Shown here piece by piece: positions 5,571 through 64,000 of a DNA stretch of 64,000 nucleotides; position 1 is the stretch's first letter; every line of letters starts with the position of its first letter. The notes beneath the pieces are model-generated. The model saw nothing but the letters and a program-made list of their open reading frames with translations. It made no database searches and was not told the origin of the DNA. Source of the DNA: Promethearchaeota archaeon (GTDB lineage: Archaea; Asgardarchaeota; Lokiarchaeia; Sigyniarchaeales; SOKP01); NCBI GenBank assembly GCA_019058295.1, contig JAHPZI010000006.1, forward strand, positions 79,916 to 143,915, written 5' to 3'. Position numbers and translations under genes: made by a program.

Positions 5571-6212
5571 TTAAACTTTTTTGATGTCTTTTTGATATTT
5601 ATGAATTATCTTTCTGAGTTTCTCTAAGTTGGTTTTTTTCAATGCAGAAAATTCTAGAAAAGGAATCTCAGCTTCTTTACCATACTTAAAATTGTCTAAA
5701 TGGATAAAAGACAAACCATATTCTTTTGCTGATTCAAGAAATAAATTAATAATACTTCTTTTATCGATATGTGAAACTTTATCAATTTTATTTATAAGAA
5801 TTAAGAGTGGAATGCTATATTCTTTCAGAAAATTGATTAATTCAAAACTTAATGGAATTGACTCCCTATTTTGAATAAAATATTTATTAATTTCATCTTC
5901 AATTCTTAGAGCATTTAAAACGACTAATCCAAGAAAATAATCTTTATTGCACTTTTCAATGTGAATTATTATTTGTTTTTTAATGTGTTCTTCTCTCCTA
6001 CGACTCGAATGTTTCATATAACCGAATCCAGGTAAATCGACAATTTGATAGGGTAAATTAGGTTGCGAAATTGGTTTTATTAGCATTGTACTACCAGGTT
6101 TTTTACCTGCTTTTCCCTTGAATTTGCTTGGATTTGGTAATAATAACCGAGTTATAGAACTCTTTCCGACATTAGAATTTCCAATAATTAACAAGGATGA
6201 TTTTTTCTTCAT
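5571..6212 (-). CDS. engB: GTP-binding protein EngB/YihA family
   Basis: GNSNVGKSS, PGST, DLPGFGY, NKID and SA motifs. Confidence 0.88.
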   Translation of the reverse strand: MKKKSSLLIIGNSNVGKSSITRLLLPNPSKFKGKAGKKPGSTMLIKPISQPNLPYQIVDLPGFGYMKHSSRRREEHIKKQIIIHIEKCNKDYFLGLVVLNALRIEDEINKYFIQNRESIPLSFELINFLKEYSIPLLILINKIDKVSHIDKRSIINLFLESAKEYGLSFIHLDNFKYGKEAEIPFLEFSALKKTNLEKLRKIIHKYQKDIKKV

Positions 6213-59354: not shown

Positions 59355-59561
59355 TTAGATTAAACCAATAGCGATTTTCATATCTTGCTGAGTTACTTTC
59401 TTACGACCAGAGTGTTTCGCAATGTCAAGCGCGCAAGCTGTTAGGCTTTTAGCATATTCTTCTAACCAATCCATTAATTTGTCAACTGCGGCACGACTTA
59501 CGATCTCAGCTCCAGCTTTTTTCATTAGAGCCCTTAAAGGACTCCATGCAAATGCAGCCAT
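59355..59561 (-). CDS. Archaeal histone (HMf-like, tailless)
   Basis: PLRALMKKAGAEIVS...AKHSGRKKVTQQDM histone fold. Confidence 0.93.
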   Translation of the reverse strand: MAAFAWSPLRALMKKAGAEIVSRAAVDKLMDWLEEYAKSLTACALDIAKHSGRKKVTQQDMKIAIGLI

Positions 59562-60170: not shown

Positions 60171-61808
60171 TTACTTTTTAAGAATTGCTTTTCGCTTTAT
60201 GATCACAATTAAAGAGATTATGGCAATAACAACAAATAGCAGATAATAATTTCCAAATGGAATTGTTTCATCATCATCATCATTAGCATCATCATCATCG
60301 TCAGCATAATATAAGGGTGTTGTCTTAGAAATTGAATGTTCAAAAATCCAGAGATCGTTTAAAAATCCTAGTGCCCCCGTATCAGGATAACCCGAACCTC
60401 CAAATAAGTAGAATTCACCATCAGCTCCAGTCCAAAAAGCAGACCCAGATCTAGCTCCTGGGGAGTTTGCACTATCAGGAATTCCCATAGTGCCATAAAC
60501 ACCATTCTGATCAAGAGTTTTATACCCCGATGTCCACGTCCACTCATGGGAAGTGATATCAAATTTCCAAAGGTCATTCAACGAACCATACGATCCCGTC
60601 TCAGGATAACCCACTCCTCCAAATACCCAGATATCTCCATTAGTATCGGCCCAAATAACAGCAGAGTATCTTCCTCCTGGGTAGTTAGCGCTATTAGGAG
60701 CTCCCTTCGTGCCATAAACACCATTTAAATTGTTAGTCTGGCTACCCGACATCCATGTCCACTCATAGGAAGTCATATTTAGCCTCCAGAGTTCATTCAT
60801 CCGATTTTCCCCTCCTATTTCAGCATGACCCCCAAATATCCAGAGATTTCCATTAGTATCAGTGCAATAACCAGTATAACGTCTAGCTCCAGGATAGTTT
60901 GCACTGTCAGGATCTCCCTCGGTGCCATAAACCCCAATTGCATTGTTAGTCTTATTACCCGATATCCATGTCCACTCAGAGGAAGTGATATTATATCTCC
61001 AAACATCATTCAACCTCCCATACGATCCCGACTCAGTATGGCCCCATCCTCCAAATAACCAGAGATTTCCATTAGTATCATTCCAGGAAACACTATCATA
61101 TCTACTTCCGGGGTAATTCGCACTGTCAGGATCTCCCTTGGTGCCGTAAACCCCATCTACATTTATAAACTTACTACCCGCCATCCATGTCCACTCAGAA
61201 GAAGTGATATTAAATCTCCAGAGATCAGTCAACCGACCTGAAGTTGTTTCATTTAAACCAAGTCCTCCAAATAGCCAGAAATTTCCCTCTTTATCTATCC
61301 AGGAAACAGCTAAATCTCTACCTCCTGGGTAATTTGCACTGTCAGGATCTCCCTTGGTGCCATAAACCCCAAATTCATAAGTTGTTTTATTACCTGATAT
61401 CCATGTCCATTCCTGAGATGTTTTATTGAATAACCAGAGGTCATTCAAGAAATCAGATGCCCCTGTTGTGGCTAAACCCACTCCTCCAAATAACCATAAA
61501 TTTCCATTTATATCAGTACTGGAAGTAGCACCATATCTGCCTCCTGGGAAATTTGCGCTGTCAGGAACTCCCTTGGTGCCATAATCACCATATGCATCAG
61601 CAGTCTTATTCCCCATCATCCAGGTCCACTCCACAACAACACCACTACTTTTTGGTGTGATTATTGGAACCTCTGCTTCAGAATCTGATTTATTCTCATT
61701 AGTCATCAAAGTTGAAGAGAAGAAAGATGTATAAAATATGATAGAAATCAATATTATACTAAAACTAATTGTAATCGGTTTGATTTTCATTATTTTTAAA
61801 TTTGTCAT
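60171..61808 (-). CDS. Kelch/galactose-oxidase-type beta-propeller surface protein with C-terminal anchor
   Basis: Six ~72-aa repeats PGxR...GNLWLFGG...LNDLW...EWTW; poly-D linker, IPFGN + TM + basic tail. Confidence 0.9.
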   Translation of the reverse strand: MTNLKIMKIKPITISFSIILISIIFYTSFFSSTLMTNENKSDSEAEVPIITPKSSGVVVEWTWMMGNKTADAYGDYGTKGVPDSANFPGGRYGATSSTDINGNLWLFGGVGLATTGASDFLNDLWLFNKTSQEWTWISGNKTTYEFGVYGTKGDPDSANYPGGRDLAVSWIDKEGNFWLFGGLGLNETTSGRLTDLWRFNITSSEWTWMAGSKFINVDGVYGTKGDPDSANYPGSRYDSVSWNDTNGNLWLFGGWGHTESGSYGRLNDVWRYNITSSEWTWISGNKTNNAIGVYGTEGDPDSANYPGARRYTGYCTDTNGNLWIFGGHAEIGGENRMNELWRLNMTSYEWTWMSGSQTNNLNGVYGTKGAPNSANYPGGRYSAVIWADTNGDIWVFGGVGYPETGSYGSLNDLWKFDITSHEWTWTSGYKTLDQNGVYGTMGIPDSANSPGARSGSAFWTGADGEFYLFGGSGYPDTGALGFLNDLWIFEHSISKTTPLYYADDDDDANDDDDETIPFGNYYLLFVVIAIISLIVIIKRKAILKK

Positions 61809-61945
61809 TATTTGACCAAAATATAATTATCTTTATAATGATGATTATTATATTTTTAAGGTTCTTATTACCAGTTTTCTCGAGTAAAATACCCCTCACT
61901 TCAGTATAAATTTCTTATTTTCTGAAATTAAAAGATACCTTAGTT

Positions 61946-61994
61946 ATTAATATTTATTTGTGAAATTGATACTCATCCTATGATCAAAATTTGA
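61946..61994 (+). repeat. 49-bp imperfect direct repeat, copy 2
   Basis: 42/49 identical to 59737..59785. Confidence 0.85.
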
Positions 61995-62165
61995 TAACTT
62001 ATTAGTCGGTTTACTCGCGCCGAATTAAGCATTCAATATAGGTTTATTGAGATTATTGACCAAAGATGATAAATTGAGATAGCTAATAATTTTTTGAATT
62101 ATATAACGGGTTATTATTTTAGCGTTGAACGCTTTTGAGCTCTCAATTGTAGGAAATAATTTTTA

Positions 62166-62825
62166 TTACAGCTCTATTAATTCAGTTTTGTTTGCTTGGT
62201 TAATTGCTTCTTTTAATCTATGTTGCCATGCATGGATTTTATCAATTTGATCAAATACATTTCGCTCTTCTATACCATAATCAACTATCTCTTCTACATT
62301 ATAGTAATCAATATATTCTTCTTCAATCTTATGACCTTGCTCGCTGAGTGATTGTTTTTGTTTGTATAATGGATAAATAGTTCGCCATTTGGTGTAGGCA
62401 TCTGTTTTTTCTATTACTTCAACACCAACAGCTTTTTTTGGTACAGCTTGTGCAGCTTCTTCCAATTTTGGAGCTATATCATTCTTTAAAACTAATAATT
62501 CTGGAATTGTAAGTTCAACTTCATTGCCTTCTAAATCAACCAATCTTGCTTTCGCTTTTTGGTTTGTCAATGATATTCTTAAGGCAATTTTTCTGTCTTC
62601 CTCTATTAGCTGTTTGATCTTTTCTTGACATTCTTCAATTGTATAGGTTCTTTTAAAATCTTTTTCAGAGCCCGGGATTTTAATAAATTTTTTCTCTCCT
62701 TCAATTTCTTTTGTCTGATACTTAATACTATCTTTTCCAGCAAGTCTTAGTCTATTTATCCAATTGTTAAGCTCAGACTCTATTTGCTTACGACGGGAAA
62801 ATGCGTCGCCCAATGTAAATACCAT
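62166..62825 (-). CDS. DIP1984-like (septicolysin-annotated family) coiled-coil protein
   Basis: TLGDAFSRRKQI, RISLTN...LTIPELL, LKEAINQANKTEL match the family layout from memory; AAGGTGA SD. Confidence 0.6.
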   Translation of the reverse strand: MVFTLGDAFSRRKQIESELNNWINRLRLAGKDSIKYQTKEIEGEKKFIKIPGSEKDFKRTYTIEECQEKIKQLIEEDRKIALRISLTNQKAKARLVDLEGNEVELTIPELLVLKNDIAPKLEEAAQAVPKKAVGVEVIEKTDAYTKWRTIYPLYKQKQSLSEQGHKIEEEYIDYYNVEEIVDYGIEERNVFDQIDKIHAWQHRLKEAINQANKTELIEL

Positions 62826-62861
62826 TTATTTCTTCACCTTTAATTTTATTTTTTGATTTAT

Positions 62862-63060
62862 TGGGTGCCAGCACGGTTGTCAAGGCTTGAAGGAGCCTTG
62901 TAAATGTATGATACCGATATATTCTATTATATTATGGGATATAGATCTAAATTTTTACTATATACGTCCAAAGCGTGACGTGCGCTTAGGTAGACAGCCT
63001 AAGTTTTGATAGATGTAATATTATAAAGTTTACAACCTTCATATTTGATCCGTGCTGGCT
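62862..63060 (-). ncRNA. Candidate structured non-coding RNA / 5' leader (~195 nt)
   Basis: Perfect 10-bp closing stem 63050-63059 / 62867-62876 enclosing five hairpins. Confidence 0.7.
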
Positions 63061-63081
63061 TGATTATAAAGGTTTAAGTCT

Positions 63082-63089
63082 TATTTAAA
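63082..63089 (-). promoter_or_regulatory. TATA box for the candidate RNA
   Basis: TTTAAATA ends 22 nt upstream of the 5' arm of the closing stem. Confidence 0.5.
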
Positions 63090-63139
63090 TATTGCTATGA
63101 AATTAAATTTCTATAAAAAAAAATAATATTTTTTATATA

Positions 63140-63337
63140 CTAACTCAAAACCATGGATATAAGATATAACATATCAAGGGTCATTTGGAATATAAGAACA
63201 GCTACAACCGACCAGACAGCTATGGAGAGAATCATATGATTACATTTTTGATCCTTTTTTGACAATTCCTGTCCACAGTTTTGACAATAGTTTATTGCGC
63301 CTTCCAAATGATAACCACATTTTTTACATAGAATCAT
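63140..63337 (-). CDS. Small zinc-ribbon protein with C-terminal TM
   Basis: CKKCG...YCQNCG; GGTGA SD. Confidence 0.7.
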   Translation of the reverse strand: MILCKKCGYHLEGAINYCQNCGQELSKKDQKCNHMILSIAVWSVVAVLIFQMTLDMLYLISMVLS

Positions 63338-63381
63338 TATTTTTATCACCCTTCTATTTTAGAATTATATTTTATTTCATT

Positions 63382-63714
63382 TTATTCTTCTGAATATGCT
63401 TTTGCTTTGCGAACTCTTAATATTTTTGAACCAAAAAGTTCTAAATTTTTTATTTGCTTTAATTTTTCTGAAAAATAAGTAATTTTACCATCAGGGCCCT
63501 TTCTATTATCAACCATTTTTACAAAAAAATATTTATGAAGATATTTGCCAATACACCAAGTAATGACGGTTCTCGGTTTTTTTCTTTGAGAGCTAAAACA
63601 CCACCAATCTTTACAACGTTTAGAGCAAAATATATGCGTCGAAGGAGTTTGAAGTTTGTTTACTAATAGCACCGGTTTTTTATTTATAGCCCTTCTGCAA
63701 TATTCACATATCAT
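63382..63714 (-). CDS. TRASH/MYM-type zinc-finger protein
   Basis: CEYC...HIFCSKRC. Confidence 0.65.
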   Translation of the reverse strand: MICEYCRRAINKKPVLLVNKLQTPSTHIFCSKRCKDWWCFSSQRKKPRTVITWCIGKYLHKYFFVKMVDNRKGPDGKITYFSEKLKQIKNLELFGSKILRVRKAKAYSEE

Positions 63715-63732
63715 GAGTCTTTTTTACAATTT

Positions 63733-63870
63733 CTATAAAATTTCTAAAATTTGTCTATTATTAAATTCTCTGAGAGAATTTTTAATCATTTCTCCTTCAA
63801 TATCTGAAAACTCATCATCTTCTCCATCAATTAGAATACTATTTAGTATTTCTTCTATTCTTTCTGACAT
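63733..63870 (-). CDS. Small acidic protein, 45 aa (not in ORF track)
   Basis: GGTGA SD then MSERIEEILNSILIDGEDDEFSDIEGEMIKNSLREFNNRQILEIL*. Confidence 0.5.
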   Translation of the reverse strand: MSERIEEILNSILIDGEDDEFSDIEGEMIKNSLREFNNRQILEIL

Positions 63871-64000
63871 TTTATCACCATTTTAAAATTTATGATTATA
63901 GAGATTATACACAAGTTTTATTATCGTTATATTTAAAGAAAAAAATTAGATTGGGTACCAAATTCAGTGATGATTCGATGATTTAATCATAATTTGTGTA

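What the first reader, a model, noticed from the sequence alone, without database searches (positions are those of the whole stretch)
62166..63090. Structured ~195-nt RNA with its own promoter coupled to a DIP1984-like coiled-coil gene: candidate new RNP or riboregulatory system
Seen: in AT-rich intergenic DNA, a TATA box (63082-63089, minus strand) is followed 22 nt later by GCCAGCACGG (63059-63050), which pairs perfectly with CCGUGCUGGC (62876-62867). Inside are hairpins AAGGUU/AACUUU, CUUAGG/CCUAAG (63003-62985), ACGUC/GACGU (62981-62964), AUAUAG/CUAUAU and CAAGGCU/AGCCUUG (62900-62881), separated by A/U-rich single-stranded linkers. The AAGGUU stem needs a G-U pair that works only on the minus strand. 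About 40 nt after the closing stem come an AAGGTGA SD and the ORF. Knowledge: the protein layout resembles the DIP1984-like helical family, whose function is unclear. The RNA does not resemble tRNA, SRP RNA or RNase P RNA. Inference: a discrete end-paired RNA (Y-RNA-like architecture) bound by the oligomeric protein, or an autoregulatory leader.
Basis: partly seen in the sequence, partly recalled or inferred. Interest (0 to 1): 0.82.

Follow-up and report, generated by a model that had tools for sequence, protein, structure and literature searches.

The report
New pseudoknotted RNA partnering unknown protein
The folded RNA is real: it belongs to an uncatalogued, pseudoknotted RNA family that always sits beside the same unknown 219-residue protein gene in Asgard archaea and in several bacterial phyla, which points to an undescribed RNA-protein particle and not to a simple mRNA leader.

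Summary
Observation confirmed. Every element is at the stated coordinates, and the 193-nt RNA (63059..62867, minus strand) folds far better than shuffles (z -4.9).

It is a conserved RNA family with no Rfam match. Covariation supports the closing stem P1, the last hairpin P5, and a pseudoknot between UGAAGG (63041-63036) and the P5 loop.

A TTTAAATA-like box lies 20-24 nt before P1 in 22 of 24 archaeal copies.

The RNA and the 219-aa gene (a distant DUF7873/DIP1984-like relative) travel together:
- In Asgard the RNA is upstream on the same strand, with no terminator in between.
- In bacteria it is directly downstream, on the same strand or convergent.
- Orphan and tandem RNA copies carry their own promoter and T-tract.

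The RNA carries GUA/GYA triplets phased every 7 nt, up to 8 in a row in bacteria.

Best reading: a dedicated partner RNA of an oligomeric protein. The RNA-protein particle is inferred, and binding is untested. Its function is unknown. A pure leader or riboswitch role is disfavoured.

The scan had already noted this family on another genome (e1-5382936).

The parts
63082..63089 (-). TATA box TTTAAATA, the promoter of the RNA
   Evidence: A TTTAAATA-like box (2 mismatches or fewer) lies 20-24 nt upstream of the first P1 base in 22 of 24 archaeal copies.
62867..63059 (-). The structured RNA, 193 nt from the first to the last base of P1
   Evidence: Fold z -4.87. CM R1 scores 179 bits here and finds homologues beside the gene in 20+ Asgard loci. 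There is no Rfam match. Metatranscriptome contigs of 169 and 171 nt from two studies cover only 62869-63040.
63050..63059 (-). P1, 5' strand (GCCAGCACGG)
   Evidence: 17-24 of 25 distinct sequences are paired at each position, with many compensatory changes, for example CUGGAGUUGG/CCAACUCCAG.
62867..62876 (-). P1, 3' strand (CCGUGCUGGC)
63043..63049 (-). Conserved single-stranded junction AUCAAAU (family consensus AUCRAAU; bacteria C-N-R-A-A-G). It resembles a tRNA T-loop heptamer.
   Evidence: Near-invariant columns in A2 and A4. The T-loop likeness is by eye only.
63036..63041 (-). Pseudoknot PK1, 5' strand (UGAAGG)
   Evidence: It pairs with the P5 loop. 21-25 of 25 distinct sequences are paired at each of the 6 positions, with AU/UA/GC/CG/GU types. 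The test was on an alignment whose model did not contain this helix. On the MAFFT alignment it is 90.8% paired, and 6 of 6 pairs show double changes.
62888..62893 (-). Pseudoknot PK1, 3' strand (CCUUCA), which is the loop of P5
63004..63033 (-). 5' single-stranded 'rail'. It starts with the conserved GUAA (63033-63030) and is A/U-rich here.
   Evidence: GUAA is near-invariant. In bacteria this stretch holds 3-4 phased GYA heptads.
62985..63003 (-). P3 hairpin (CUUAGG / CCUAAG) with the conserved loop motif GUCUA
   Evidence: The stem is only moderately supported: 14-19 of 25 are paired, with few double changes. The GUCUAYC motif is shared with the bacterial RNAs.
62972..62986 (-). P4 hairpin AGCG...CGCU. 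It may form a small pseudoknot with ACGUC/GACGU at 62981-62964.
   Evidence: P4: 20-23 of 25 paired, with GC/CG/UA/AU covariation. The ACGUC/GACGU helix is paired in only 6-20 of 25, so it is inconclusive.
62901..62965 (-). 3' 'rail'. It begins with two phased units, GUAUAUA GUAAAAA (62965-62952), and has a conserved GUAU at 62914-62911. The rest is A/U-rich and variable.
   Evidence: In 22 archaeal RNAs, 32 of 54 GUA-GUA spacings of 28 nt or less are multiples of 7, against 6.1 +/- 2.5 in shuffles. Bacterial relatives have up to 8 consecutive GYANNNN units here.
62881..62900 (-). P5 hairpin (CAAGGCU / AGCCUUG)
   Evidence: The six inner stem pairs are paired in 20-25 of 25; the outermost pair in 14 of 25. 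CG/UA/UG and AU/UA/GC covariation is seen.
62863..62866 (-). Conserved 3' tail ACCC (ACC in most Loki-type copies)
   Evidence: It is also present in the tandem upstream copy of L032, which has no gene or SD after it. Its role is unexplained.
62834..62840 (-). Shine-Dalgarno-like AAGGUGA. There is no T-tract between the RNA and the ORF.
   Evidence: No T5+ tract follows any gene-linked RNA copy, whereas orphan and distal copies have one. No terminator-like site was found.
62166..62825 (-). Partner protein gene, 219 aa: a distant DUF7873/DIP1984-like relative with four long helices plus a beta-sheet.
   Evidence: 333 homologues at 50-96% identity. AF2 model pLDDT 88. Atlas fold and feature neighbours are DUF7873, DUF6847 and phage clusters. 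Bacterial orthologues are borderline DUF7873 hits.

Best explanation
The 193-nt element is a genuine non-coding RNA of an undescribed family. It is the dedicated partner of the protein encoded next to it.

Shown:
- The RNA has a compact core. Closing stem P1, hairpin P5, and a pseudoknot between the segment just after P1 and the P5 loop bring the two ends together.
- This core encloses two largely single-stranded stretches that carry GUA (in bacteria G-Y-A) triplets phased every 7 nt. A central pair of small hairpins carries a conserved GUCUAYC motif.
- A TATA box is kept at a fixed distance, so transcription should start at P1.
- In this genome no terminator separates the RNA from the ORF, so RNA and mRNA are made as one unit.
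- RNA and gene co-occur strictly, and stay adjacent in three different arrangements across two domains.

Inferred:
- The RNA accumulates as a discrete species, either by processing or because its folded, end-paired structure is stable.
- Several copies of the protein bind the phased triplets as an oligomer, one triplet per subunit. HutP binds UAG-N4 repeats in this way.
- The result is a defined RNA-protein particle.
- In Asgard, placing the RNA in front of the ORF additionally couples the amounts of RNA and protein, and could allow autoregulation.

The cellular role of the particle is not known.
For: Structure:
- Fold z -4.87.
- Covariation score 0.454 against 0.182 +/- 0.015 in shuffles, with 0 of 500 shuffles reaching it. 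Slid controls give 0.09-0.13.
- PK1 is paired in 21-25 of 25 distinct sequences at every position, on an alignment whose model lacked PK1.

Promoter: a TATA-like box lies 20-24 nt before P1 in 22 of 24 copies.

Linkage:
- All 21 distinct Asgard loci with intact upstream DNA carry the RNA 25-45 nt before the start codon.
- Among 151 Asgard genomes the RNA was found in 7. All 7 are among the 9 of 201 genomes that hold the gene.
- There is no conserved gene neighbourhood.

Independence from a leader role:
- About 60 bacterial loci carry a 190-220-nt P1-closed RNA directly downstream of the gene. It is on the same strand in most groups and on the opposite strand in the Myxococcota group.
- The archaeal model R1 hits these elements at exactly that place: L098 E 5e-12, L116 7e-7, L096/L097/L048 0.03-0.06.
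- An orphan copy in the own genome (contig C12:944-1141) and a syntenic one in a sister species have a TATA box and a T-tract but no gene.
- A tandem distal copy in a Helarchaeota MAG has its own TATA box and T-tract.

Discrete species: RNA-library contigs of 169 and 171 nt from two studies lie wholly inside the RNA and stop at 62869/62870, the P1 3' end.

Heptads: in-phase GYA pairs are 172/284, 115/192 and 130/180 in three bacterial groups, against 27, 15 and 10 in shuffles. Archaeal GUA pairs are 32/54 against 6.

Precedent: HutP recognises UAG-N4-UAG-N4-UAG (PMC2425495).
Against: - No binding, expression level or RNA ends have been measured. The contig evidence is weak, because contigs cannot show true ends.
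- In the window's own RNA only a few heptad units keep GUA, and the rest of the rails is generic A/U-rich sequence.
- The protein is mildly acidic (pI 5.7) and has no recognised RNA-binding domain.
- Homology between the bacterial and archaeal RNAs rests on shared architecture and motifs, plus one-directional CM hits. The bacterial model R2 does not find the archaeal RNAs significantly (best E 0.43).
- In gene-linked Asgard copies the RNA is physically the 5' leader, so a cis role there cannot be excluded.
Confidence: 0.6

Rival explanations
1. A purely cis-acting leader. The RNA would be a riboswitch-like or protein-binding 5' UTR element that controls translation of the downstream ORF, for example through the ACC tail pairing with the GGUG Shine-Dalgarno. 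It would have no function as a free RNA.
For: - In all gene-linked Asgard copies the RNA lies 25-45 nt before the start codon with no T-tract in between.
- The tail after P1 (CACC) is complementary to the SD in several loci (sequence).
- A P1-closed multi-helix pseudoknotted fold is typical of aptamers.
Against: - In bacteria the homologous RNA is downstream of the gene or convergent to it, and the gene itself looks leaderless.
- Orphan and tandem-distal Asgard copies have their own promoter and terminator and no ORF.
- The ACC tail is kept in the L032 distal copy, which has no SD after it.
- RNA-only contigs turn up in two metatranscriptome studies.
- The element is tied to one gene family only, which is unlike metabolite riboswitches.
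Confidence: 0.12
2. A two-component toxin-antitoxin or defence-type module, in which the RNA neutralises or licenses the protein. This would be analogous to type III toxin-antitoxin pairs.
For: - It is a stand-alone gene-plus-RNA cassette without conserved neighbours.
- Its distribution is patchy: 9 of 201 Asgard genomes.
- It is present in two domains and several bacterial phyla.
- Relatives by fold and by features include phage protein clusters.
- A TIR-domain gene lies next to it in one locus.
Against: - There are no tandem 30-40-nt repeats, and no PADLOC family beyond noise.
- There is no nuclease-like fold or domain.
- No phage or plasmid copies of this subfamily were found.
- The protein tree shows one clean archaeal/bacterial split and very high sequence conservation, not the rapid turnover usual for defence genes.
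Confidence: 0.12
3. A tRNA-like or Y-RNA-like RNA used by other machinery (RNA repair or quality control). It would sit next to the gene only because the two are co-regulated, and the encoded protein would not bind it.
For: - The junction AUCRAAU resembles a T-loop heptamer, and an ACC tail follows a long terminal helix.
- One metagenomic ORF fuses an RtcB N-terminus to this protein.
- Earlier scan notes report tRNA-mimic RNAs beside DUF7873 genes. These are unverified leads.
Against: - No tRNA.
- No Y_RNA, YrlA or other Rfam hit even at E 10.
- No Ro60/TROVE or RtcB gene is nearby in the loci inspected.
- Strict co-occurrence and adjacency with this one gene in three arrangements is most simply explained by direct partnership.
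Confidence: 0.06
4. Not a functional RNA: a chance fold, a MITE, or a relic of a mobile element with terminal inverted repeats.
For: It has 10-bp perfect terminal inverted repeats around an A/T-rich ~170-nt interior.
Against: - It is single-copy by BLAST in the own genome, with one divergent paralogue by CM.
- Compensatory covariation is seen in P1, PK1 and P5 across orders of Asgard archaea.
- The promoter distance is conserved.
Confidence: 0.01

Closest known systems
HutP and its binding sites in the Bacillus subtilis hut terminator RNA (PMC2425495)
   Same: Short triplets are repeated with exactly 4 spacer bases (7-nt period), in two clusters on one RNA. In HutP each triplet is read by one subunit of an oligomer. 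Here, GUA/GYA-N4 units occur in two clusters.
   Different: - The triplet is GUA/GYA, not UAG.
- The protein has no HutP domain and a different predicted fold.
- The RNA is a 190-240-nt pseudoknotted, end-paired molecule, not a terminator hairpin.
- It lies downstream of, or convergent to, the gene in bacteria, so it is not an attenuator.
TRAP and the trp leader (11 G/UAG repeats wrapped round an 11-mer ring). This comparison is from general knowledge.
   Same: An oligomeric protein reading phased triplets on single-stranded RNA, with a similar number of units (about 11-12 in the bacterial RNAs).
   Different: TRAP spacers are 2-3 nt. It belongs to a different protein family and is a cis-regulatory leader. 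Here the RNA has a structured core, and its position relative to the gene varies.
Ro60/Rsr with Y RNAs (YrlA, Rfam RF02553)
   Same: A ~100-200-nt RNA with paired 5' and 3' ends, encoded next to its protein partner, with a T-loop-like sequence.
   Different: No TROVE protein, and no Rfam Y_RNA or YrlA hit at E 10. The fold is pseudoknot-based, with heptad rails.
DIP1984 family / Pfam DUF6847 (PDB 3kdq) and Pfam DUF7873
   Same: - The predicted fold resembles a DIP1984/DUF6847 model cluster (TM 0.49 by query, 0.73 by target, 128 residues).
- 3kdq aligns with Z 5.8 and rmsd 1.1 over 55 residues.
- The nearest Atlas cluster by features is 26% DUF7873.
- Bacterial orthologues score 29-31 bits on DUF7873, whose cutoff is 27.
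   Different: - The window protein itself hits neither Pfam model at E 1.
- A profile of the family reaches only 56 clusters in 1.84 billion representatives and no wider family.
- No function is known for any of these families, and no paper mentions DUF7873.
Type III toxin-antitoxin systems (ToxIN). This comparison is from general knowledge.
   Same: A protein gene with an adjacent dedicated structured, pseudoknotted RNA, forming a stand-alone cassette.
   Different: There is no tandem array of ~36-nt repeats and no endoribonuclease-like protein. Gene order is variable. No PADLOC hit.

Membership tests
Any Rfam 15 family | Covariance-model match at or near the gathering score | tested here: not met
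   Window 61500-64000 at E up to 10 gives only sub-threshold snoRNA noise elsewhere and nothing on the RNA. Bacterial homologues have no hit at gathering score or at E up to 1.
tRNA / tmRNA | Cloverleaf detected by ARAGORN | tested here: not met
   0 genes in the whole window.
SRP RNA / RNase P RNA (divergent copy) | It would have to be the genome's only candidate for that RNA | tested here: not met
   The SRP RNA is on contig C10 and the RNase P RNA on contig C7 of the same genome.
MITE / dispersed repeat | Many copies in the genome | tested here: not met
   Only itself by BLAST. One divergent paralogue by CM.
HutP-type system | Triplets repeated with 4-nt spacers (7-nt period) | tested here: met
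   GUA/GYA in-phase spacings lie far above shuffles in archaeal and bacterial RNAs. The HutP motif was read in PMC2425495.
HutP-type system | The triplet is UAG, the protein has the HutP fold or domain, and the RNA is an upstream terminator/antiterminator | tested here: not met
   The triplet is GUA/GYA. There is no HutP Pfam hit. The RNA is downstream or convergent in bacteria.
Ro60-Y RNA | A TROVE-domain protein partner and a Y RNA/YrlA model match | tested here: not met
   Pfam shows no TROVE domain on the partner or its neighbours. There is no Rfam hit.
Type III toxin-antitoxin | A tandem-repeat antitoxin RNA upstream of an endoribonuclease toxin | tested here: not met
   TRF finds no repeat. 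PADLOC gives only noise. Gene order varies.
Pfam DUF7873 (PF25283) | Score at or above the 27-bit gathering cutoff | tested here: inconclusive
   The window protein has no hit at E 1. 2 of 14 family members and 2 of 6 bacterial orthologues score 27.5-31 bits.
DIP1984 / Pfam DUF6847 (PF20935) | A sequence-model match or clear fold identity with 3kdq | tested here: inconclusive
   No Pfam or NCBIfam hit. Atlas TM 0.49/0.73 over 128 residues. 3kdq gives Z 5.8 over only 55 residues.
Riboswitch / cis-regulatory leader | A constant position in the 5' UTR of the regulated gene | tested here: not met
   This holds in Asgard but not in bacteria or in the orphan and tandem copies.

The most novel reading that the evidence does not exclude
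This is a previously unknown ribonucleoprotein particle shared by Asgard archaea and several bacterial phyla. A pseudoknot-closed scaffold RNA displays two rails of 7-nt-phased GUA/GYA units, and an oligomer of a DUF7873/DIP1984-like protein assembles on them. It would be one branch of a wider, undescribed superfamily of 'protein plus dedicated structured RNA' modules that also occurs in phages.
Probability: 0.45. Interest if true: 0.9.

Novelty: categorically new. Interest (0 to 1): 0.8.

Why it matters
If the pairing is a true RNP, it adds a new RNA family and gives a first functional handle on DUF7873/DIP1984-like proteins. No paper in the library searched mentions DUF7873 or DIP1984, and the related name 'septicolysin' occurs there only as an annotation label.

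The module is conserved at 45-55% protein identity between Asgard archaea and bacteria, and the RNA core is kept while gene order changes. Conservation of this kind is usually seen only for functionally obligate RNA-protein partners.

The phased 7-nt units give a concrete, testable binding model. Asgard archaea are the closest known relatives of eukaryotes, so any new RNP in them is of evolutionary interest.

Tried and rejected
- Known RNAs: Rfam, at relaxed E on the window and on bacterial homologues, gave nothing. ARAGORN gave nothing. A divergent SRP or RNase P RNA is rejected because both are elsewhere in the genome.
- MITE: rejected by copy number.
- Protein domains and folds: Pfam, NCBIfam, PADLOC and PHROGs gave no informative domain. 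A PDB sequence profile gave nothing. Foldseek PDB and VIA wide gave only generic helical hairpins.
- Phage and plasmid collections: no tblastn match.
- Gene neighbourhood: nothing conserved.
- Bacterial model R2 against the archaeal loci: not significant (best E 0.43, at the right place in L035). Cross-domain RNA homology therefore rests on R1 hits plus shared architecture.
- Alignment-free PK1 test by duplex energy: significant (1 of 2000 permutations) but noisy, because the anchor motif was mislocated in some sequences.
- ACGUC/GACGU as the second stem of a small pseudoknot: inconclusive.
- Bulge-helix-bulge excision: considered by eye, not by a tool. It is unlikely here, because the 5' end of P1 coincides with the predicted transcription start, so there is no upstream strand to form the motif.
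- Anti-SD role of the ACC tail: weakened because the L032 distal copy keeps the tail without any SD.
- Sequencing runs: only small shares of the query were held and only contigs were available. No transcript ends, strand or level can be read from them, and parts without cover mean nothing.
- Literature: searches for DUF7873, DIP1984, DUF6847, and Asgard plus riboswitch found nothing relevant.
Full report
**1. The observation**

On the minus strand, the sequence shows the following:
- TTTAAATA at 63089-63082.
- Twenty-two bases later, GCCAGCACGG (63059-63050), whose perfect complement CCGTGCTGGC lies at 62876-62867.
- AAGGTGA at 62840-62834.
- A 219-codon ORF at 62825-62166.

The 206-nt stretch folds at -52.7 kcal/mol, against -32.7 +/- 4.1 for dinucleotide shuffles (z -4.87). 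The closing-stem 10-mer is found only at these two sites in the window. BLAST finds no other copy in the 3.2-Mb genome, so this is not a MITE. ARAGORN finds no tRNA, and Rfam at E up to 10 gives nothing on the element. The genome's SRP RNA and RNase P RNA are on other contigs.

**2. A conserved, pseudoknotted RNA**

The protein has 333 homologues at 50-96% identity, named by their sources as Loki-/Promethearchaeota, Heimdall-, Hod-, Odin- and Sigynarchaeota. I fetched loci from relatives, GTDB genomes and metagenomes. In every Asgard locus with intact upstream DNA (21 distinct loci), a homologous element lies 25-45 nt before the start codon.

The closing stem covaries freely. Examples are GUCAGUUAGG/CCUAACUGAC, CUGGAGUUGG/CCAACUCCAG, GCCGGAGCGGG/CCCGCUCCGG and GUCGAAAUAGG/CCUAUUUCGAC.

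On a MAFFT alignment of 20 RNAs, RNAalifold found a long-range pairing: the six bases after the conserved junction (UGAAGG, 63041-63036) pair with the loop of the last hairpin (CCUUCA, 62893-62888). Counting my full model on that alignment gave:
- 78.7% of cells paired, against 62.6% in column shuffles.
- 121 double-change cells, against 43.
- Covariation score 0.454, against 0.182 +/- 0.015 (0 of 500 shuffles reach it) and 0.09-0.13 for slid partners.

The pseudoknot is the best helix: 90.8% paired, with 6 of 6 pairs showing compensatory changes. On a CM-derived alignment whose model did not contain the pseudoknot, 21-25 of 25 distinct sequences pair at each of its six positions, using AU, UA, GC, CG and GU.

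Support for each proposed helix:
- P5 (62900-62881) and a small hairpin AGCG/CGCU (62986-62972): supported.
- CUUAGG/CCUAAG: moderately supported.
- ACGUC/GACGU: inconclusive.
- AAGGUU/AACUUU and AUAUAG/CUAUAU: not conserved. The first is replaced by the pseudoknot.

A first-stage note on this same window (e1-5519118) had already pointed to the UGAAGG/CCUUCA complementarity. The covariation confirms it.

**3. Transcription signals**

A TTTAAATA-like box (2 mismatches or fewer) lies 20-24 nt upstream of the first P1 base in 22 of 24 archaeal copies. That is the spacing expected for an archaeal start at P1 (general knowledge of archaeal promoters).

No run of five or more T follows any gene-linked copy, and no terminator-like site lies between RNA and ORF here. 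RNA and ORF are therefore one transcription unit.

The three copies that are not followed by the gene each have a T-tract 15-25 nt after P1:
- an orphan copy on contig C12:944-1141 of the window's own genome (73 bits);
- its syntenic counterpart in a sister species;
- the distal copy of a tandem pair in a Helarchaeota MAG.

No remnant of the protein gene lies beside the orphans. The two orphans keep the pseudoknot through a compensatory change.

In two wetland metatranscriptome studies, contigs of 169 and 171 nt lie wholly within the RNA (62869-63037 and 62870-63040). They stop at the 3' end of P1. This is a weak hint of a discrete species.

**4. Linkage to the protein**

- The gene was found in 9 of 201 Asgard genomes.
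- The RNA model found the RNA in 7 of 151 genomes, and all 7 are among the gene holders.
- Flanking genes differ from locus to locus.
- The protein family is small and tight. A profile reaches only 56 clusters, mostly fragments, among 1.84 billion representatives.

**5. Bacteria have the same pair in other arrangements**

The gene also occurs, at 44-53% identity, in MAGs labelled Myxococcota, Planctomycetota, Actinomycetota and Armatimonadota, and in soil metagenome contigs. There the gene looks leaderless, with a -10-like hexamer 6-7 nt before the ATG, and no RNA lies upstream.

The archaeal model R1 hit the DNA immediately downstream of the gene instead: L098 at 61 bits (E 5e-12), L116 at E 7e-7, and L096, L097 and L048 at E 0.03-0.06. 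Nearly every bacterial locus has a 190-220-nt element closed by a 9-26-bp stem within about 10-50 nt of the stop codon.

These elements share the archaeal layout:
- P1;
- a C-N-R-A-A-G junction;
- a 5' segment complementary to the loop of the last hairpin (for example GGAUGG/CCAUCC, GUGCGC/GCGCAC);
- a GUCUAYC motif.

A model built from them (R2) finds the RNA in all remaining bacterial loci. It lies on the gene's strand in some and on the opposite strand, convergent, in the Myxococcota group. In many same-strand cases P1 is followed by a U-run, so it doubles as an intrinsic terminator (sequence). Rfam has no match for these RNAs.

In the protein tree, the bacterial sequences form one clade (support 100/100, long branch) apart from the Asgard ones. 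The L098 protein sits among the Asgard rows on a long, unreliable branch.

Adjacency is thus kept in three arrangements: upstream on the same strand, downstream on the same strand, and downstream convergent. This argues that the conserved function is a partnership, not cis regulation.

Caveat: R2 does not detect the archaeal RNAs significantly (best E 0.43, at the right place). Cross-domain homology of the RNA therefore rests on R1 hits and shared architecture.

**6. Phased heptads**

The bacterial RNAs carry G-Y-A triplets every 7 nt. Up to 8 units occur in a row, for example GUAACAG GUACUGC GUACCAC ... in L097 and GCAGCAA GCAAUGG ... in L050. A further 3-4 units follow the pseudoknot strand.

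In-phase spacings compared with dinucleotide shuffles:

| Bacterial group | Observed in-phase pairs | Shuffle mean |
|---|---|---|
| 'act' (high-GC soil metagenome group, taxon not determined) | 172/284 | 27 +/- 5 |
| Myxococcota group | 115/192 | 15 +/- 4 |
| other phyla | 130/180 | 10 +/- 4 |

In 22 archaeal RNAs, 32 of 54 GUA-GUA spacings of 28 nt or less are multiples of 7, against 6.1 +/- 2.5. Distance 7 occurs 18 times and distance 14 occurs 9 times.

In the window's RNA the clear units are GUAA at 63033, GUAUAUA-GUAAAAA at 62965-62952, and GUAU at 62914. The rest of the two 'rails' is A/U-rich.

The sequences are related, so these counts overstate independence. The signal nevertheless recurs in groups with quite different sequences.

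**7. The protein**

- AlphaFold2 gives a confident model (pLDDT 88, pTM 0.77): four long helices packed with a beta-sheet.
- PDB searches give only generic helical matches.
- 3kdq, the DIP1984 crystal structure, aligns with Z 5.8 over 55 residues.
- Among predicted models, the neighbours are a DUF7873 cluster, a DIP1984/DUF6847 cluster (TM 0.49/0.73) and two phage clusters. Language-model features agree with this.
- The window protein hits no Pfam or NCBIfam model. Some orthologues just pass the DUF7873 cutoff.
- Invariant residues include many Arg, Lys, Trp, Tyr, Asn and Gln, but the protein is mildly acidic.

'DIP1984-like' is therefore plausible as a distant fold relationship and no more.

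**8. Mechanism and rivals**

Best reading (0.6): a dedicated partner RNA whose P1/PK1/P5 core closes the molecule and presents two single-stranded rails of phased triplets to an oligomer of the protein. In Asgard the RNA is made as the 5' part of the gene's transcript.

Shown: the structure, the promoter spacing, the linkage, the three arrangements and the periodicity. Inferred: binding, oligomerisation, release of the RNA from the mRNA, and any cellular role.

Rivals:
- A purely cis leader or riboswitch (0.12). This is contradicted by the bacterial arrangements and by the orphan and tandem copies.
- A toxin-antitoxin or defence-like module (0.12). The cassette-like, patchy distribution fits, but there are no repeats, no nuclease and no defence-model hit.
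- A tRNA/Y-RNA-like RNA used by other machinery (0.06).
- Chance or a MITE (0.01).

**9. Comparison with known systems**

The closest working analogy is HutP, whose hexamer reads UAG-N4-UAG-N4-UAG in two clusters (PMC2425495), followed by TRAP. The triplet, the protein fold, the RNA architecture and the genomic placement all differ, so this RNA is not a member of either system. Ro60/Y RNA and type III toxin-antitoxin pairs share only the 'protein plus adjacent dedicated RNA' logic.

**10. Novelty**

There is no Rfam family, and no paper was found.

The scan's own earlier, unchecked notes describe the same family on another genome (e1-5382936). They also describe heptad-bearing or tRNA-mimic RNAs beside other DIP1984/DUF7873 genes (e1-5044955, e1-5370490, e1-3443960). 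I had reached the arrangement and heptad results before reading those notes, and they agree with my results.

I rate the module as lying outside known kinds of system, with the function still open.

Noticed in passing
own genome, contig C12:944-1141 (-), locus L132; syntenic copy L131:1501-1700 (-): A second, divergent copy of the RNA (73-75 bits) with its own TATA-like box and a T-tract. It has no partner gene downstream, and its 3' end overlaps the end of a convergent membrane-protein ORF. It is conserved at the same place in a sister species, and the pseudoknot is kept by a compensatory change.
   Followed up: partly
L032:5427-5626 and 5750-5955 (Helarchaeota MAG): Two tandem RNA copies lie upstream of one protein gene. 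The distal copy has its own TATA box and is followed by T-tracts, so it is an independent RNA gene.
   Followed up: partly
window 62863-62866 (-) and the same place in most Loki-type copies: A conserved ACC(C/U/A) tail lies right after the closing stem. It recalls a tRNA 3' end or an anti-Shine-Dalgarno sequence. It is kept even in a copy with no ORF behind it. Its role is unexplained.
   Followed up: partly
L098:3671-3899 and L116:257-474 (A/T-rich metagenome contigs): Here the RNA scores well with the archaeal model but lies downstream of the gene, as in bacteria. The L098 protein sits among the Asgard sequences on a long branch. The organisms were not identified.
   Followed up: partly
L074 (metagenome contig) / protein P0104: A 265-aa ORF joins an RtcB (tRNA ligase) N-terminus to residues 57-219 of this protein. 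It could be a real fusion or an assembly chimera. There is only one instance.
   Followed up: no
L040:8276-8487: In one deltaproteobacterial MAG the RNA (149 bits with R2) lies about 1.6 kb downstream of the gene, with other coding sequence in between. This is the only locus seen where the pair is not adjacent.
   Followed up: no
own genome, contig C10:19378-19615 (L016): The SRP RNA matches Rfam Archaea_SRP only over model positions 67-307 and scores 59.8 bits, below the 96.5-bit gathering score. The 5' domain may be divergent in this lineage.
   Followed up: no
window 60171-61808 (-): A 545-aa Kelch-repeat beta-propeller protein with an N-terminal hydrophobic segment, an acidic D-rich stretch and a C-terminal hydrophobic anchor. 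It lies directly downstream of the RNA-protein module.
   Followed up: no
window 63140-63349 (-) and 63382-63714 (-): Two small zinc-ribbon / FCS-type zinc-finger ORFs lie upstream of the RNA promoter. The first has a C-terminal hydrophobic segment.
   Followed up: no
window 59355-59561 (-): A 68-aa ORF that looks like an archaeal histone by eye. It was not checked with a tool.
   Followed up: no
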